Shown piece after piece: positions 11,165-54,885 of a stretch of 64,000 nucleotides of DNA. This DNA is from a phage. Under the pieces are notes generated by a model. It saw only the letters and a list, made by a program, of their open reading frames with translations. It searched no databases and was not told where the DNA came from. The translations under genes were made by a program, and so were the position numbers. The stretch is from NCBI GenBank assembly GCA_024614665.1, contig GCA_024614665.1_4861.1. One strand, written 5' to 3'. Each line of letters opens with the position of its first letter. The stretch's first letter is position 1.

Positions 11165-11179
11165 AGATAATATCTATCT
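11165..11179 (-). promoter_or_regulatory. promoter-like 15-bp element, type A (plus strand AGATAATATCTATCT)
   Basis: Exact 15-mer shared by 5 sites; about 40 nt upstream of ATG 11125. Confidence 0.5.
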
Positions 11180-11230: not shown

Positions 11231-11929
11231 TTAGGGTATTAGGCGTTGGGCTATTTCGCGGAGTTGGTCGCGGGTTAAATCAGCCAACTTCTGGTCGCCG
11301 AAGCCCAACTTCAGACCCAGCTCGTACCCAGCTTGCGGATACGTGTTCGTGTTTGCTACTGAGAGGAGTGCATCGGCTATCTTTACCATCGTTAACTCGA
11401 GAGACGCATACGGGGCGGGGATCGGCTGATTCACGATTTGGTAATTATAACGCACTGCGGCGTTATCGTAGTCAAACTCCATCCTTCTGCCGAGAACGTT
11501 AAACGACTCCGCAGAATAACTACCAAATGGGTGATTGGCTTTTTCCCACAAATCTTTCCGTTCAGTAAACCCAGTCGCGAAGTTCTGACGTATGGTGTCG
11601 AATATTTGCGTTGCCTGGCTAGGGTGTATATTTTTCAGCTCATTGTAGTCGTAGTCGGCGATGGAATATAGAGTGAACACAACACCGTTTATATTTAACT
11701 GCGGATAATCCATCCGCAGACTGTCATCACCTTGTAAATGAAGTTCCCACATCCTTACCCACTGCAATATCGCGCTTACCGCATCGTGACTGAGATAAAA
11801 ATTAGTAGGTTCTTCAGGATTTTCACGGAAGGGAACAGAGCATTCCGATACAAAAAAGCCGGCTGCCATAAATCCTCTGCCGTCGAACATAGGCGCAACT
11901 AATCTTGATTTTTCTAAATTGATTACCAT
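11231..11929 (-). CDS. hypothetical protein (232 aa)
   Basis: ORF track; ATG 11929; promoter-like element 41 nt upstream. Confidence 0.55.
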   Translation of the reverse strand: MVINLEKSRLVAPMFDGRGFMAAGFFVSECSVPFRENPEEPTNFYLSHDAVSAILQWVRMWELHLQGDDSLRMDYPQLNINGVVFTLYSIADYDYNELKNIHPSQATQIFDTIRQNFATGFTERKDLWEKANHPFGSYSAESFNVLGRRMEFDYDNAAVRYNYQIVNQPIPAPYASLELTMVKIADALLSVANTNTYPQAGYELGLKLGFGDQKLADLTRDQLREIAQRLIP

Positions 11930-11969: not shown

Positions 11970-11984
11970 AGATAATATCTATCT
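11970..11984 (-). promoter_or_regulatory. promoter-like 15-bp element, type A
   Basis: Exact copy AGATAATATCTATCT immediately downstream (minus sense) of a terminator and 41 nt upstream of ATG 11929. Confidence 0.5.
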
Positions 11985-16872: not shown

Positions 16873-17019
16873 TTACTTCTTATTGAAGATGATGTCACCT
16901 CCTAGTCCTTTAATGGTACGGGTGGAAGTCTGCGGTTGGCGGGTAACCTCTTGCAGACGTTGTTGAAAAGCGACATGTTTCAGCTGTTGCTGACGCAGTT
17001 GTTGCATAAAGGTATTCAT
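16873..17019 (-). CDS. small protein, 48 aa (tandem paralogue 2: MNTFMQQLRQQQLKHVAFQQRLQEVTRQPQTSTRTIKGLGGDIIFNKK)
   Basis: ATG with AGAGG RBS; paralogue of 16614..16760; below ORF-track length cut-off. Confidence 0.45.
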   Translation of the reverse strand: MNTFMQQLRQQQLKHVAFQQRLQEVTRQPQTSTRTIKGLGGDIIFNKK

Positions 17020-17995: not shown

Positions 17996-18418
17996 TTAGT
18001 CCTTAAGAGAGTTAATAAAGTCATCTAAACTAATATCACGGAATGGGAAGTAAACACCTTCAAGCGGAATCGTGTAGTGTTCACTAATGGCACGTTGCCA
18101 ATCCAGAACAGTTGCAGGGTAGTTCACAACCTCAAAGTTAGGATGCGTAATTGGCGGAATTGCGTTGTAAACATAGCCGTTAATATTTTTCGATGGGAAC
18201 GCTGCACGGAACTTCGGCTCCATGTAGAACATTTCCTCTTTTACTTCCTGGCCTTCCCAGAAACGATAACCGCCCTTACCGTCAGGAATATAAATCGCCT
18301 TGTCACGGGGTATAGGGGAATCCTTGGATAGCGGAACAAATCGTCCGTACTGGTCAAGGACCATCCAGTCGGTGTCATTCTTTAAATACTTTTGGAGCTT
18401 CTCATTAATCATTTTCAT
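17996..18418 (-). CDS. hypothetical protein (about 141 aa)
   Basis: Track ORF 17996..18493; in-frame ATG 18418 preceded by TAAGGAAC and placed after an upstream terminator. Confidence 0.5.
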   Translation of the reverse strand: MKMINEKLQKYLKNDTDWMVLDQYGRFVPLSKDSPIPRDKAIYIPDGKGGYRFWEGQEVKEEMFYMEPKFRAAFPSKNINGYVYNAIPPITHPNFEVVNYPATVLDWQRAISEHYTIPLEGVYFPFRDISLDDFINSLKD

Positions 18419-18428
18419 GTTCCTTAGG

Positions 18429-18458
18429 CAAAAAATAATACCACCCGTAGGTGGTATT
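18429..18458 (-). terminator. intrinsic terminator (minus strand)
   Basis: Stem aataccacc/ggtggtatt with CGTA loop, then plus-strand A-tract. Confidence 0.5.
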
Positions 18459-18470
18459 AAATTAGCTATA

Positions 18471-18659
18471 CTACTTCTTCCCGAGTTCCCCACGGAACTT
18501 CGCCAGCTCTTCTTTCCAGTCCGGCTTCGGTAGTGCGCTTTTCGGCCCCACGATAAACGTACGTTCTGAGGTTTGCGGATTCACCTCTACCGTTTCGTTA
18601 TCTTCCACTTCGCGAAGCATGATTCCGTTTTTACCATCGTAATTAACTAAAACACCCAT
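18471..18659 (-). CDS. hypothetical small protein (62 aa)
   Basis: ORF track; start overlaps stop of upstream gene. Confidence 0.35.
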   Translation of the reverse strand: MGVLVNYDGKNGIMLREVEDNETVEVNPQTSERTFIVGPKSALPKPDWKEELAKFRGELGKK

Positions 18660-18841
18660 TAGTAAATCTCCTGCTGCATTGGAAATACATTACCTGTCGG
18701 TGAGACAAGTAAAACTTGCGCGGTAACGTGAACGATTTCTTCTTCGTCCTGACGACGAACACTGTTAGTGAGATTATCCCACTCACGTTTAACACGCGGG
18801 TGAGATAAGAACTCGGCAAACTGCGCATCAGAAAAGTCCAT
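18659..18841 (-). CDS. hypothetical small protein (about 60 aa)
   Basis: Track ORF 18659..18859; ATG at 18841 overlaps the stop of the upstream small gene (TAATG). Confidence 0.35.
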   Translation of the reverse strand: MDFSDAQFAEFLSHPRVKREWDNLTNSVRRQDEEEIVHVTAQVLLVSPTGNVFPMQQEIY

Positions 18842-18984
18842 TAGCCGCGACCTGTACACATGGCAACAGAGTTACCGTTATCGATGCACTTATTGTAATC
18901 TTGAGTTACAGTGATAGACAGTACCGCGAAAGCAACAACAGCAACGATGGCAAAGATGGCACGTTTATGGTTACGAGTTAACAT
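18841..18984 (-). CDS. small predicted membrane protein (47 aa: MLTRNHKRAIFAIVAVVAFAVLSITVTQDYNKCIDNGNSVAMCTGRG)
   Basis: ATG preceded by AAGGAG at ideal spacing; one hydrophobic helix; first gene after promoter-like element type B; below ORF-track cut-off. Confidence 0.4.
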   Translation of the reverse strand: MLTRNHKRAIFAIVAVVAFAVLSITVTQDYNKCIDNGNSVAMCTGRG

Positions 18985-19041
18985 GGCAATACTCCTTTAG
19001 ATTAATAGTCGATTGAGTTGATAGATTGTCTTCTATCACCT

Positions 19042-19056
19042 AGGTAATATATATCT
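19042..19056 (-). promoter_or_regulatory. promoter-like 15-bp element, type B (plus strand AGGTAATATATATCT; within 26-bp exact repeat 19036-19061)
   Basis: 26-mer identical to 27539-27564; 13/15 match to type A on the coding strand; 58 nt upstream of ATG 18984. Confidence 0.5.
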
Positions 19057-19080
19057 GAAATTATTTTTATTCAGAGTACA

Positions 19081-19132
19081 CCCTCTATAACGCTCTCAAA
19101 CGCGTTTTGAGAGCTTTTATCACTATAGAGGG
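19081..19132. other. nested inverted repeats (candidate structured RNA or protein-binding site)
   Basis: Outer arms ccctctata/tatagaggg enclose inner hairpin gctctcaaa-cgcgt-tttgagagc; lies in a 242-bp intergenic region. Confidence 0.35.
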
Positions 19133-19180
19133 TCGTTCTACCGTTAGAGTGGCTTTAGAAGGTTGTGAGTGCGTTTAGAG
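19124..19180. repeat. four direct repeats of TAGAG-like half-sites (T[T/A]AGA[G/A])
   Basis: tatagaggg / ttagagtgg / ttagaaggt / ttagagggc at about 19126, 19145, 19156, 19176. Confidence 0.3.
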
Positions 19181-19181
19181 G

Positions 19182-19219
19182 GCTAAAATAAAGAGACCTG
19201 GTCTCACAAGGAGACCAGG
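19182..19219 (-). terminator. intrinsic terminator (minus strand)
   Basis: Stem cctggtctc/gagaccagg preceded on plus strand by A-rich tract; follows stop of gene 19227..20024. Confidence 0.55.
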
Positions 19220-19226
19220 CACACAT

Positions 19227-20024
19227 TTACATCAAATCCAGGCTCTGTGAGACCGCAACTTCCGGTTCACTGATGCCGCTGGTCACTGACAATGTAAAGC
19301 GACGATCGTTAATCACTTCAACTGCTTCGCTCGCACGCAGTGAATACTTGTCGGCGATTGGCAGTACACTGTTATCGTTCTGCGGCGGCAGAATCTGTGC
19401 CGGGAACGGAATGTACGAGTTGAAAGTGATATACGGACCGACTTGCATCATCGGGAACACTTCGTTCACGTTATTCGACATCCCTTCATCCGAAGAGATA
19501 ACGGAGTGACGCAGACAGGCACGCAGGCCAACGGTGTACTCCGGATCGCGCGATTCGCCGATCAGTGCGAAACGGAACACATTGAAATCGTAGTCGTCTG
19601 CAGCGAAGTGCTCTGGCAGGATACGCTGTACGTATTCAGGGTAAGTGGTCACGTCACCCGGAATAACATTCACGGCGAGTTTCTGTGCCAGGAAATACGC
19701 ATTCGCGAAACCGTACTGACCCGCCAGCGCAGCTGAAATCGGTGCAGTGGTTACGCAGTGCAGGAACAAGTGATAACCCAGCCCGCCTTTATCTTCGATT
19801 GCCAGGTCCTTCTTACTCTGCACACCGTCAGCAGTATAAATAACTGCCACTGTCTTATCCAACGTCGATGCCATGACAAAATCCAACTGCACCTCACCGC
19901 TCTGCGGTAGTACCTTAACCAGGCGATCCCAGAGCTTGGTCGGTTTGGTGAAGTTAGCGGCTTCGTACGCATCAATGTCGAGAACAGTTTGGCCGGTCAT
20001 GCGAAAGGTGTGAATCGCTTTCAT
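19227..20024 (-). CDS. hypothetical protein (265 aa)
   Basis: ORF track. Confidence 0.55.
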   Translation of the reverse strand: MKAIHTFRMTGQTVLDIDAYEAANFTKPTKLWDRLVKVLPQSGEVQLDFVMASTLDKTVAVIYTADGVQSKKDLAIEDKGGLGYHLFLHCVTTAPISAALAGQYGFANAYFLAQKLAVNVIPGDVTTYPEYVQRILPEHFAADDYDFNVFRFALIGESRDPEYTVGLRACLRHSVISSDEGMSNNVNEVFPMMQVGPYITFNSYIPFPAQILPPQNDNSVLPIADKYSLRASEAVEVINDRRFTLSVTSGISEPEVAVSQSLDLM

Positions 20025-27496: not shown

Positions 27497-27544
27497 ATTC
27501 CTTAAGTGATAGTCGGTTAAAAGATTACCAATGCAATCTCACCT

Positions 27545-27559
27545 AGGTAATATATATCT
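27545..27559 (-). promoter_or_regulatory. promoter-like 15-bp element, type B (within 26-bp exact repeat 27539-27564)
   Basis: Identical 26-mer to 19036-19061; sits between an upstream terminator and ATG 27496. Confidence 0.5.
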
Positions 27560-54870: not shown

Positions 54871-54885
54871 AGATAATATCTATCT
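54871..54885 (-). promoter_or_regulatory. promoter-like 15-bp element, type A
   Basis: Exact AGATAATATCTATCT 31 nt upstream of the beta-like gene ATG (54840); also 22 nt upstream of divergent plus gene 54907. Confidence 0.5.

What the first reader, a model, noticed from the sequence alone, without database searches (positions are those of the whole stretch)
18471..18984. Promoter-proximal operon of three tiny proteins led by a 47-aa single-pass membrane protein
Directly downstream of the type B promoter-like element are three translationally coupled small genes (47, about 60 and 62 aa) with overlapping stop/start codons, ending at a terminator. The first has an ideal AAGGAG RBS and one hydrophobic helix. 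Small early membrane proteins in phages commonly act in superinfection exclusion, host takeover or lysis timing; these are unannotatable by eye.
Basis: partly seen in the sequence, partly recalled or inferred. Interest (0 to 1): 0.4.

Follow-up and report, generated by a model that had tools for sequence, protein, structure and literature searches.

The report
Early jumbo-phage operon, tiny membrane protein
Three real but uncharacterised small genes of an SPN3US-type giant Salmonella phage lie between a predicted early phage promoter and a terminator, and the first, a 47-residue membrane-anchored peptide with a small disulfide loop facing the periplasm, is the only gene always kept in this otherwise shuffled cassette; its function is still unknown.

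Summary
The window is an SPN3US-like jumbo phage (Seoulvirus). The finding covers SPN3US gp66 (47 aa), gp67 (60 aa) and gp68 (62 aa) on the minus strand, all annotated only as hypothetical. The genes overlap by TAATG and are under purifying selection. They follow a 25-nt element (TTTCAGATATATATTACCTAGGTGA) that shares its TATATTAC core with phiKZ early-promoter-like sites and belongs to a motif family found 7 times in the window (0 expected). In SPN3US this family precedes the non-virion RNA polymerase operons, so the unit is probably transcribed early by the virion RNA polymerase; this timing is inferred. A hairpin terminator ends the unit.

In 12 relatives the promoter and terminator are conserved but the genes between them vary. 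Only gp66 is always present, and one relative has promoter-gp66-terminator alone. gp66 is a predicted N-in/C-out single-pass inner-membrane protein with an invariant C-terminal CxxNGNSxxxCTGRG tail. No homologue of known function was found by Pfam, NCBIfam, PHROGs, PDB or a profile search of 1.84 billion proteins.

An early action on the host envelope, such as superinfection exclusion or takeover, is the most plausible function but is untested. This is a solid, ordinary ORFan early cassette of modest interest.

The parts
19196..19220 (-). Intrinsic terminator of the upstream 265-aa gene (SPN3US gp65), followed by CTCTTTATTTT. It marks the end of the preceding structural-gene module.
   Evidence: an equivalent hairpin is present in all relatives
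19078..19190 (.). Array of 10-13-nt units related to GCGTT(N2-3)AGAGG. About 5 are reversed and 2 forward, forming a compound palindrome of about 60 nt just upstream of the promoter. Possible regulator-binding array; role unknown.
   Evidence: Three forward tandem units sit at the same place in 7 diverged relatives.
19036..19060 (-). Type B promoter-like element TTTCAGATATATATTACCTAGGTGA (core AGATATATATTACC at 19043-19056). Predicted early promoter read by the virion RNA polymerase.
19019..19038 (-). 5' leader hairpin (TGATAGA-agacaa-TCTATCA) immediately after the promoter.
   Evidence: An equivalent hairpin with different, complementary arms occurs in 17 of 19 cassettes, mean z = -2.5.
19003..19014 (-). 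Leader motif AATCGACTATTA, part of a recurring translation-initiation module (AATCGACYATTA-N3-6-AAGGAG).
18992..18997 (-). Shine-Dalgarno AAGGAG, 7 nt before the gp66 ATG.
18841..18984 (-). gp66 (47 aa). Predicted N-in/C-out single-pass inner-membrane protein: basic N-terminus, TM at residues 10-26, then a 21-residue tail DYNKCIDNGNSVAMCTGRG with two invariant Cys.
18659..18841 (-). gp67 (60 aa, pI 4.7, soluble). TAATG overlap with gp66. Conserved FAEFLxNPRxKREWDNL motif. Accessory gene, absent from many relatives.
18471..18659 (-). gp68 (62 aa, soluble). TAATG overlap with gp67. Conserved C-terminal PDWKxELAxFRxxLxKK helix. Accessory gene, absent from many relatives.
18429..18459 (-). Intrinsic-terminator-like hairpin TAATACCACC-TACG-GGTGGTATTA plus TTTTTTG. 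The RBS of the next gene (gp69) follows immediately.
   Evidence: A hairpin plus T-run is conserved at the end of the small-gene block in all 13 relatives checked.

Best explanation
This is a compact early transcription unit of an SPN3US-type, nucleus-forming jumbo phage.

Shown:
- Three genuine protein-coding genes lie between a phage-specific promoter element and a hairpin terminator.
- gp67 and gp68 each start on the stop codon of the preceding gene (TAATG).
- Across the clade the promoter, the 5' leader hairpin, the RBS module and the terminator are conserved, while the gene content is shuffled.
- The 47-aa gp66 is the one invariant cargo.

Inferred from sequence:
- The injected virion RNA polymerase transcribes the unit soon after infection.
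- gp66 inserts into the inner membrane with its basic N-terminus in the cytoplasm.
- Its 21-residue C-terminal tail lies in the periplasm, where the two invariant cysteines (C33, C43) close an 11-residue loop (CxxNGNSxxxC) followed by TGRG-COOH.

Speculative, but my best commitment:
- This constrained periplasmic loop binds a host envelope component and alters envelope function early in infection. The most likely effect is to protect the infected cell from secondary infection (superinfection-exclusion-like). Otherwise it takes over an envelope process such as division, wall synthesis or motility.
- gp67 (acidic) and gp68 are dispensable cytoplasmic early ORFans that ride in the same cassette, not obligate partners of gp66.
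For: Identity of the locus:
- 99% identical to Proteus phage 7 and 98.7% to SPN3US. The genes are SPN3US_0066-0068, annotated 'hypothetical'.

The genes are real:
- Full-length PHROG matches.
- Orthologues in 63, 46 and 41 phage records for gp66, gp67 and gp68.
- pN far below pS.

Promoter class:
- AGATANATATTAYC occurs 7 times in the window against 0 expected.
- SPN3US has 16 copies, all on the coding strand. Nearly all are intergenic; one lies inside gp30.
- Copies precede the operons of the non-virion RNAP subunits: gp22-gp23 (homologous to phiKZ gp55), gp34-gp35 and gp76-gp78. Subunit assignments are from PMC5105663.
- The core TATATTAC occurs 7 times in the first 50 kb of phiKZ. All copies are on the coding strand and intergenic, including one upstream of the nuclear-shell gene gp54.
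- A review states that such AT-rich motifs centred near -10 mark early, vRNAP-dependent promoters in every RNAP-encoding jumbo phage (PMC7598289).
- No sigma-70-like site lies on the coding strand.

Conserved unit with variable cargo:
- The same promoter is present in 12 of the 14 relatives examined (9 of 11 GenBank phages plus all 3 metagenomic contigs), with the array of gene orders listed.
- A terminator hairpin ends the block in all 13 relatives checked.
- Metagenomic relative L022 has promoter-gp66-terminator only.

gp66 topology and motif:
- The TM segment is hydrophobic in 12 of 12 orthologues.
- The N-terminal 7-9 residues carry 2-3 Lys/Arg, against a net charge near 0 for the 21-residue tail.
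- C, NGNS (with one or two conservative substitutions in the wider set) and CTGRG are conserved across all 12 orthologues and the 5 extra clusters from the exhaustive search.
- The TM sequence itself varies, so the selected part is the tail.
Against: - No transcript, protein or phenotype data exist for these genes in the papers I could read. The SPN3US infection proteome paper was not available.
- Early timing rests on motif class only. The identity of TATATTAC as the mapped phiKZ early consensus is partly from my memory of Ceyssens et al. 2014, which I could not open.
- Topology and the disulfide are predictions.
- No homology to any superinfection-exclusion, holin, toxin or other characterised family, so the functional step is a guess by analogy.
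- The terminator abuts the RBS of gp69, and the essential gene gp70 follows. The unit may therefore not really end there; termination may be partial.
Confidence: 0.5

Rival explanations
1. gp66 is a lysis-timing factor, such as a single-TM holin, an antiholin or a holin partner in the manner of a miniature T4 RI. It would act through its periplasmic tail.
For: - Its architecture (N-terminal TM plus a small periplasmic domain) resembles T4 RI (from memory).
- Some relatives carry an 81-aa multi-TM protein (phrog_16811, function unknown) immediately upstream in the same cassette.
Against: - It lies about 110 kb from the annotated endolysin gp198. That gene has its own signal-like N-terminus and a 2-TM 86-aa neighbour, gp200, which is a better holin candidate.
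- It sits behind an early-type promoter.
- The tail is uncharged and only 21 residues long.
- No holin or antiholin family match.
Confidence: 0.1
2. gp66 is a membrane-depolarising or pore-forming peptide (Hok-like or viroporin-like). It would shut down host energy-dependent processes early in infection and oligomerise through its Ala/Gly-rich TM face or through intermolecular disulfides.
For: - Its size and layout match Hok/Gef-type peptides: an N-terminal TM and a periplasmic Cys-containing tail (from memory).
- A conserved A-I-x-small-I start to the TM and a small-residue stripe run along the helix.
Against: - No PF01848 or other toxin match.
- Selection is strongest on the periplasmic motif rather than the TM. 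This argues for specific binding, not generic pore formation.
Confidence: 0.12
3. The hydrophobic segment is a cleavable Sec signal peptide, and the active product is a free, disulfide-cyclised periplasmic peptide of about 20-25 residues.
For: - The n-region/h-region layout is present.
- The window sequence has AFA followed by V (residues 18-20), which resembles an AXA cleavage site.
- Four relatives have (L/V)AC, which fits the loose lipobox pattern.
Against: - The hydrophobic core is 17-19 residues long, typical of a membrane anchor and long for a signal peptide.
- Neither the AXA-like site nor the Cys is conserved across orthologues.
Confidence: 0.08
4. The unit is not early. The motif would belong to a middle or late (non-virion RNAP) promoter class, or the genes would be expressed mainly by read-through from the upstream late structural module.
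For: - No experimental transcription start or timing data exist for any Seoulvirus.
- The unit lies directly after a virion-protein module (gp61-gp64).
Against: - A strong terminator separates it from gp65.
- The motif precedes the non-virion RNAP genes themselves, which cannot depend on that enzyme.
- The core is shared with the phiKZ sites.
Confidence: 0.1

Closest known systems
phiKZ-family early (virion RNA polymerase) promoters
   Same: - An AT-rich core containing TATATTAC.
- Intergenic, co-oriented with the genes, 45-75 nt before the start codons.
- Precedes small ORFan operons and the non-virion RNAP genes.
   Different: - The SPN3US-clade version is longer and more rigid (TTTCAGATATATATTACCTAGGTGAGAG).
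- It comes in two subtypes, A (AGATAGATATTATCT) and B.
- It is followed by a conserved leader hairpin and an AATCGACYATTA-AAGGAG module.
- No transcription start has been mapped in this clade.
T4 Imm / Sp and other small phage superinfection-exclusion membrane proteins (from memory)
   Same: Small inner-membrane proteins made early by a virulent phage, acting at the envelope.
   Different: - No sequence similarity.
- gp66 is much smaller (47 aa against 83-97 aa).
- Its conserved part is a 15-residue disulfide-loop tail.
- Exclusion activity has not been tested.
SPO1 gp56, a small single-pass membrane protein of an early host-takeover operon that blocks cell division (from memory)
   Same: A bitopic small membrane protein encoded among tiny ORFans in an early, phage-promoter-driven cassette.
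   Different: - No homology.
- Gram-positive host.
- Its target (the FtsL/DivIC complex) is unrelated to anything shown here.
Hok/Gef type I toxins (Pfam PF01848)
   Same: About 50 aa, with an N-terminal TM and a periplasmic C-terminal part carrying functionally important Cys.
   Different: - No Pfam match.
- No antisense-RNA control is evident.
- Conservation is concentrated in the periplasmic motif.
T4-type PeSL mobile regulatory cassettes: early promoter plus stem-loop flanking shuffled ORFans (from memory, Arbiol et al. 2010)
   Same: - A repeated early promoter plus hairpin module at several genome sites.
- Gene content between conserved regulatory ends differs between close relatives.
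   Different: - A different phage family and a different RNA polymerase.
- Here the hairpin lies downstream of the promoter, in the leader.
- A role in recombination has not been shown.

Membership tests
phiKZ-type early (vRNAP) promoter | Conserved AT-rich core of about 10 nt, shared within the genome far above chance | tested here: met
   AGATANATATTAYC occurs 7 times in the window against 0 in shuffles. SPN3US has 16 copies. The TATATTAC core is shared with 7 phiKZ sites.
phiKZ-type early (vRNAP) promoter | Intergenic, co-oriented with downstream genes, and upstream of genes that must be made before the non-virion RNAP exists | tested here: met
   All 16 copies are on the coding strand. Copies precede gp22-23, gp34-35 and gp76-78, the non-virion RNAP subunit operons.
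phiKZ-type early (vRNAP) promoter | Mapped transcription start about 10 nt downstream, and transcripts appearing first after infection independently of host RNAP | not testable with these tools
   No transcriptome of an SPN3US-like phage was found.
Rho-independent terminator | GC-containing stem-loop followed by a T-run, at the end of a gene block | tested here: met
   10-bp stem plus T6, z = -4.4. A positionally conserved hairpin plus T-run is present in 13 relatives. Termination efficiency with the phage RNAPs is unknown.
Bitopic (single-pass) inner-membrane protein, N-in/C-out | One hydrophobic segment of at least 17 residues with favourable insertion energy; more Lys/Arg on the cytoplasmic side | tested here: met
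   Residues 10-26, summed Hessa free energy -2.7 kcal/mol, negative in 12 of 12 orthologues. The N-terminus carries 2-3 Lys/Arg in 7-9 residues; the tail has a net charge near 0. This is prediction only; no topology experiment exists.
Bacterial lipoprotein (Cor/Llp-type exclusion proteins, o-spanins) | Lipobox [LVI][ASTVI][GAS]C at the end of the signal sequence | tested here: not met
   The window protein has no Cys in or after the hydrophobic segment until C33. An (L/V)AC motif is present in only 4 of 12 orthologues.
Hok/Gef toxins (PF01848) | Match to the family profile | tested here: not met
   Pfam scan at E <= 1 gave only a sub-threshold OapA_N hit. NCBIfam gave nothing.
Holin / antiholin | Encoded next to the endolysin or spanin genes; match to a holin family | tested here: not met
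   The endolysin gp198 and the 2-TM gp200 lie about 110 kb away. No holin family hit.
Superinfection-exclusion proteins (T4 Imm/Sp, Sie) | Sequence membership of a known Sie family | tested here: not met
   No Pfam, PHROG-annotated, NCBIfam or PDB relative.
Superinfection-exclusion proteins (T4 Imm/Sp, Sie) | Expression blocks DNA entry or plating of secondary phage | not testable with these tools
   Needs efficiency-of-plating and DNA-injection assays.
PeSL-like mobile regulatory cassette | A repeated promoter plus stem-loop module that bounds gene sets differing between related genomes | tested here: met
   Six type B modules with leader hairpins in SPN3US. Variable cargo in 12 relatives. 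A 232-aa gene lies between two type A copies in the window and is missing from SPN3US. Recombination at the modules is inferred, not shown.

The most novel reading that the evidence does not exclude
gp66 defines a new, clade-restricted class of phage envelope effector. It would be a 47-residue membrane-tethered, disulfide-closed periplasmic loop (CxxNGNSxxxCTGRG-COOH). It is the single indispensable cargo of a hyper-variable early cassette in SPN3US/Erwinia nucleus-forming jumbo phages. It would bind a specific periplasmic or inner-membrane host target within minutes of infection, for example to exclude competing phages or to condition the envelope for the phage's unusual early vesicle stage.
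Probability: 0.25. Interest if true: 0.55.

Novelty: new member of a known kind. Interest (0 to 1): 0.3.

Why it matters
Jumbo phages of the phiKZ/SPN3US group are models for the phage nucleus and candidates for therapy, yet nearly all of their early small genes are functionally blank.

This analysis does not reveal a function. It does narrow the problem. Of a shuffled early cassette, one 47-aa membrane peptide is the conserved element, and its selected part is a 15-residue periplasmic loop. That loop is a small, synthesisable, easily testable object.

The analysis also gives a usable definition of the clade's early promoter/leader module in two subtypes, with the leader hairpin and RBS motif. 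It identifies a repeat array upstream of this promoter that could be a regulatory site.

If gp66 proves to be an exclusion or envelope-takeover factor, it would be a new minimal example of that kind. If not, this remains an ordinary ORFan operon.

Tried and rejected
- **Family searches.** Pfam, NCBIfam and PHROGs returned only function-unknown PHROGs for all three proteins and their neighbours.
- **Solved structures.** Profile searches of the PDB gave only chance-level hits with E near 1.
- **Word-indexed search of 5.8 billion proteins.** It found only close relatives from the same phage clade: 4, 11 and 5 hits.
- **Exhaustive HMM search of 1.84 billion representatives with the gp66 profile.** It found 6 true clusters, all 45-50 aa. 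Two ankyrin-repeat proteins also matched, through INKCRDNGASPL repeats. I rejected these as compositional matches.
- **Structure prediction.** AlphaFold2 models of gp67 and gp68 had pLDDT 73 and 69 but pTM only 0.28 and 0.32. Foldseek against BFVD returned only the orthologue of gp68 and nothing for gp67. I did not use the models for inference.
- **IMG/VR scan for further loci.** It returned only SPN3US and Caitlin.
- **Rfam.** No RNA family in 18300-19400.
- **First motif guess.** TATAGAGGGT, which resembles a T7-like promoter, occurs only twice and at chance level. It turned out to be part of the upstream repeat array.
- **Literature.** There is no mention of gp66-gp68 in the SPN3US papers I could read. 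The infection-proteome paper and the phiKZ transcription paper were not held. A full-text search for TATATTAC was uninformative.
- **Lipoprotein and cleaved-signal readings.** I considered both and judged them unlikely, because the motifs are not conserved.

Full report
**Identity of the window and the locus.** The 1-kb region around the finding is 99.1% identical to Proteus phage 7 and 98.7% identical to Salmonella phage SPN3US. Thirty-nine phage records match, almost all of them Seoulvirus jumbo phages. The window runs antiparallel to the SPN3US record. The three ORFs are SPN3US_0066, 0067 and 0068 (gp66, gp67, gp68), all annotated 'hypothetical protein'. They lie between gp65, which follows the gp61-gp64 virion-protein module, and gp69/gp70. 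gp70 is an essential non-virion protein according to PMC5105663. I found no mention of gp66-gp68 in the SPN3US papers I could read. The infection-proteome paper was not held.

**Check of the observation.** All features lie on the minus strand, and I verified their coordinates directly.
- gp66 runs 18984..18841 (47 aa), with AAGGAG 7 nt before its ATG.
- gp67 runs 18841..18659 (60 aa). Its ATG shares one base with the gp66 stop (TAATG).
- gp68 runs 18659..18471 (62 aa), again with a TAATG overlap and GGAG 8 nt upstream.
- A 10-bp hairpin plus T6 follows at 18459..18429 (-17.4 kcal/mol, z = -4.4).
- The ATG start of gp67, rather than the upstream GTG listed by the ORF tool, is supported by orthologues. 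All of them begin M(D/T)FSD within 0-2 nt of the gp66 stop.

**The genes are real.**
- Each protein matches its own PHROG over its full length (E from 1e-28 to 1e-38). All three PHROGs are of unknown function.
- tblastn finds gp66 in 63 phage records, including 27 Erwinia jumbo phages of other genera. It finds gp67 in 46 records and gp68 in 41.
- Codon-level comparison with up to 11 diverged orthologues shows non-synonymous differences far below synonymous ones. Window versus SPAsTU gives dN/dS of 0.06, 0.05 and 0.12. Mean pN/pS is 0.44, 0.30 and 0.44, with synonymous sites near saturation.

**The promoter-like element.**
- The sequence TTTCAGATATATATTACCTAGGTGA (19060..19036) has an identical copy at 27542-27557. 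It is related to AGATAGATATTATCT sites elsewhere in the window.
- The joint core AGATANATATTAYC occurs 7 times in the window, all on the minus strand, against none in 100 shuffles.
- In the complete SPN3US genome, allowing one mismatch, there are 16 copies. All are on the coding strand. Nearly all are intergenic, one lies inside gp30, and most sit 45-75 nt before a start codon.
- Subtype B precedes gp55, gp66, gp101, gp135, gp180 and gp249.
- Subtype A, or a close variant, precedes gp5, gp22, gp30, gp34, gp76, gp125, gp209 and gp221.
- Three of these operons encode non-virion RNA polymerase subunits. gp23 is the homologue of phiKZ gp55. gp35 and gp77 are assigned in PMC5105663. The non-virion enzyme cannot transcribe its own genes first.
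- In phiKZ-like phages the injected virion RNAP transcribes early genes from AT-rich motifs centred near -10 (review PMC7598289).
- The first 50 kb of phiKZ contains TATATTAC seven times. All copies are intergenic and on the coding strand, including one upstream of the nuclear-shell gene gp54.
- No sigma-70-like site lies on the coding strand upstream of gp66.

I conclude that the element is very probably an early, virion-RNAP promoter. This is an inference from motif class. No transcription start or timing data exist for this clade. The equation of TATATTAC with the mapped phiKZ early consensus is partly from memory, because that paper was not held.

**Leader.** All six SPN3US type B cassettes, and most orthologous cassettes in relatives, share the same layout. 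After TAGGTGA comes a hairpin whose arms differ in sequence but stay complementary. Then comes AATCGACYATTA, then AAGGAG, then the ATG. Seventeen of 19 cassettes have the hairpin, with mean z = -2.5. The AATCGACYATTA-AAGGAG module precedes about 11 SPN3US genes. It is retained in front of gp66 even in phages where gp66 is not the first gene.

**Comparative architecture.** This is the main new result. I fetched 11 diverged phage loci and 3 metagenomic contigs.
- In 12 of these 14 the same promoter lies between the gp65 homologue and the small-gene block.
- In all 13 checked, the block ends with a hairpin plus T-run (mostly GCCACC-UUCG-GGUGGC) that abuts the RBS of the next gene.
- Between promoter and terminator the content varies from one to seven genes:

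| Phage or contig | Genes between promoter and terminator |
|---|---|
| SPN3US | gp66-gp67-gp68 |
| SPAsTU | 144aa-gp66-gp67-gp68-94aa |
| Caitlin | 183aa-63aa-gp66-94aa |
| Huxley | 59aa-gp66 |
| phiEaH2 | 81aa(TM)-199aa-81aa(TM)-gp66-gp67-gp68-187aa |
| L021 | 123aa-100aa-gp66 |
| L023 | 162aa-gp66-gp68-like-gp69-like |
| L022 | gp66 alone |

Only gp66 is always present. The 'operon of three' is therefore one state of a plastic cassette whose constant cargo is gp66. gp67 and gp68 are accessory genes.

**gp66.**
- Layout: a basic N-terminus (MLTRNHKR), one hydrophobic segment (residues 10-26, summed Hessa free energy -2.7 kcal/mol) and the tail TQDYNKCIDNGNSVAMCTGRG.
- Hydrophobicity of the segment is conserved in 12 of 12 orthologues, while its sequence drifts.
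- The N-terminus always carries 2-3 Lys/Arg in 7-9 residues, and the tail has a net charge near zero. The positive-inside rule therefore predicts N-in/C-out.
- The tail motif DY-x-x-C-x-x-NGNS-x-x-x-CTGRG-stop is essentially invariant. The two Cys and CTGRG never change, across the 12 orthologues and five further clusters from the exhaustive search.
- Two Cys nine residues apart in a periplasmic tail suggest a DsbA-formed loop. This is an inference.
- A lipobox or a signal-peptidase site is not conserved.
- The exhaustive profile search of 1.84 billion representative proteins found only six true clusters, all 45-50 aa. The family is therefore confined to this phage clade and is never fused to another domain.

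**gp67 and gp68.**
- gp67 is acidic (pI 4.7) with a conserved FAEFLxNPRxKREWDNL segment.
- gp68 has a conserved C-terminal PDWKxELAxFRxxLxKK helix.
- Neither has a hydrophobic segment.
- AlphaFold2 models were of low global confidence (pTM 0.28 and 0.32).
- Foldseek against viral models gave only the gp68 orthologue.
- PDB profile searches gave nothing.

I treat both as cytoplasmic early ORFans of unknown role.

**Mechanism.** The shown, inferred and speculative steps are set out under the best explanation. In brief, the conserved regulatory frame, the three selected genes and gp66 as the invariant gene are shown. Early transcription by the virion RNAP, coupled translation, and N-in/C-out insertion with a disulfide loop in the periplasm are inferred. 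The proposal that the loop binds an envelope component soon after infection is speculative. I rank superinfection exclusion first and other envelope takeover second, because the conserved part faces the periplasm and the gene is driven by an early-type promoter.

I rank a role in lysis timing lower. The annotated endolysin (gp198, with a signal-like N-terminus) and a 2-TM 86-aa protein (gp200) lie about 110 kb away. A Hok-like depolarising peptide, a cleaved secreted peptide and non-early expression remain possible.

**Comparison and novelty.** The closest known things are:
- phiKZ-type early promoters, for the regulatory element;
- small early phage membrane proteins such as T4 Imm/Sp or SPO1 gp56, as functional analogues cited from memory with no homology;
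- Hok/Gef, which shares the layout but gives no profile match;
- T4 PeSL cassettes, for the shuffling regulatory module (from memory).

The genes are already annotated as hypothetical, and the kind of object is familiar: an early ORFan cassette with a small membrane protein. I rate it a new member of a known kind, with modest interest (0.3). The most novel reading not excluded by the evidence is a new periplasm-acting disulfide-loop effector that is the obligate cargo of this cassette. I give that a probability of about 0.25.

Noticed in passing
window 19078-19190 (both strands); SPN3US 65280-65390 and 137545-137580; L005-L013 upstream of their type B promoters: An array of 10-13-nt units related to GCGTT(N2-3)AGAGG lies between the gp65 terminator and the promoter. 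In the window about 5 units are reversed and 2 are forward, giving a compound palindrome of about 60 nt. In seven relatives there are three forward tandem units (for example GCGCTTAGAGA-GCGTCTGAGG-GCGTTATAGAGGGT) at the same place. In SPAsTU, SNUABM_29 and pSal-04 the array directly precedes a different first gene. The only other tandem copy in SPN3US is in the gp158/gp159 intergenic region. It could be an operator or regulator-binding array, or another promoter class.
   Followed up: partly
window 19003-19014 and about 10 further sites in SPN3US (for example before gp5, gp30, gp56, gp101, gp135, gp182, gp184, gp249, gp251): A recurring translation-initiation module, AATCGAC(T/C)ATTA-N3-6-AAGGAG-N7-ATG. 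It is also kept before internal genes of the cassette in relatives. Its function is unknown; it could be a translational enhancer, a processing site or a recombination hotspot.
   Followed up: partly
window 11166-11179, 11971-11984, 54872-54885, 58615-58628, 60031-60044 (minus strand): Five copies of the subtype A promoter-like element AGATAGATATTATC. In SPN3US this subtype precedes the non-virion RNA polymerase operons gp34-35 and gp76-78.
   Followed up: partly
window 11231-11929 (minus strand): A 232-aa gene sits between two subtype A promoter copies. In SPN3US the two copies are only about 200 nt apart and only the first codons of this gene remain. A whole gene has therefore been gained or lost between repeated promoter cassettes.
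   Followed up: partly
window 18407-18435 (minus strand): The terminator T-run is followed within 8 nt by the RBS and ATG of gp69, and the essential gene gp70 follows. These genes must therefore be reached by terminator read-through or from a promoter inside gp66-gp68. The same abutting layout is conserved in all relatives.
   Followed up: partly
L003 526-930, L012 807-1199, L011 282-677, L004 708-1103: Several relatives carry a stand-alone gene of about 130 aa for the N-terminal NAD+-binding domain Ia of NAD-dependent DNA ligase (PF22745, E = 7e-27), just upstream of the gp66 cassette. SPN3US and the window lack it.
   Followed up: no
L004 1189-1434, L008 1175-1420, L009 233-478 and 1205-1450: An 81-aa multi-TM protein (phrog_16811, function unknown) lies immediately upstream of gp66 in some Erwinia phages and is duplicated in phiEaH2. 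It is a second small membrane protein in the same cassette.
   Followed up: no
window 16873-17019 (minus strand) and the neighbouring gene (SPN3US gp71, gp72): Two tandem 48-aa genes, each behind an intergenic gap of about 112 nt, with a conserved ...KGLGG(D/E)I(I/V)F(N/T)K(K/R) C-terminus. Homologues are present in Huxley and in L022 and L023.
   Followed up: no
SPFM phage records LR535901-LR535917 (hits H23-H30, P0014, P0015, P0017, P0019, P0020): Many SPFM genome records match this locus only in 14-16 short pieces and give truncated or fused versions of gp66-gp68. This looks like frameshift-rich assemblies, not biological variation.
   Followed up: no
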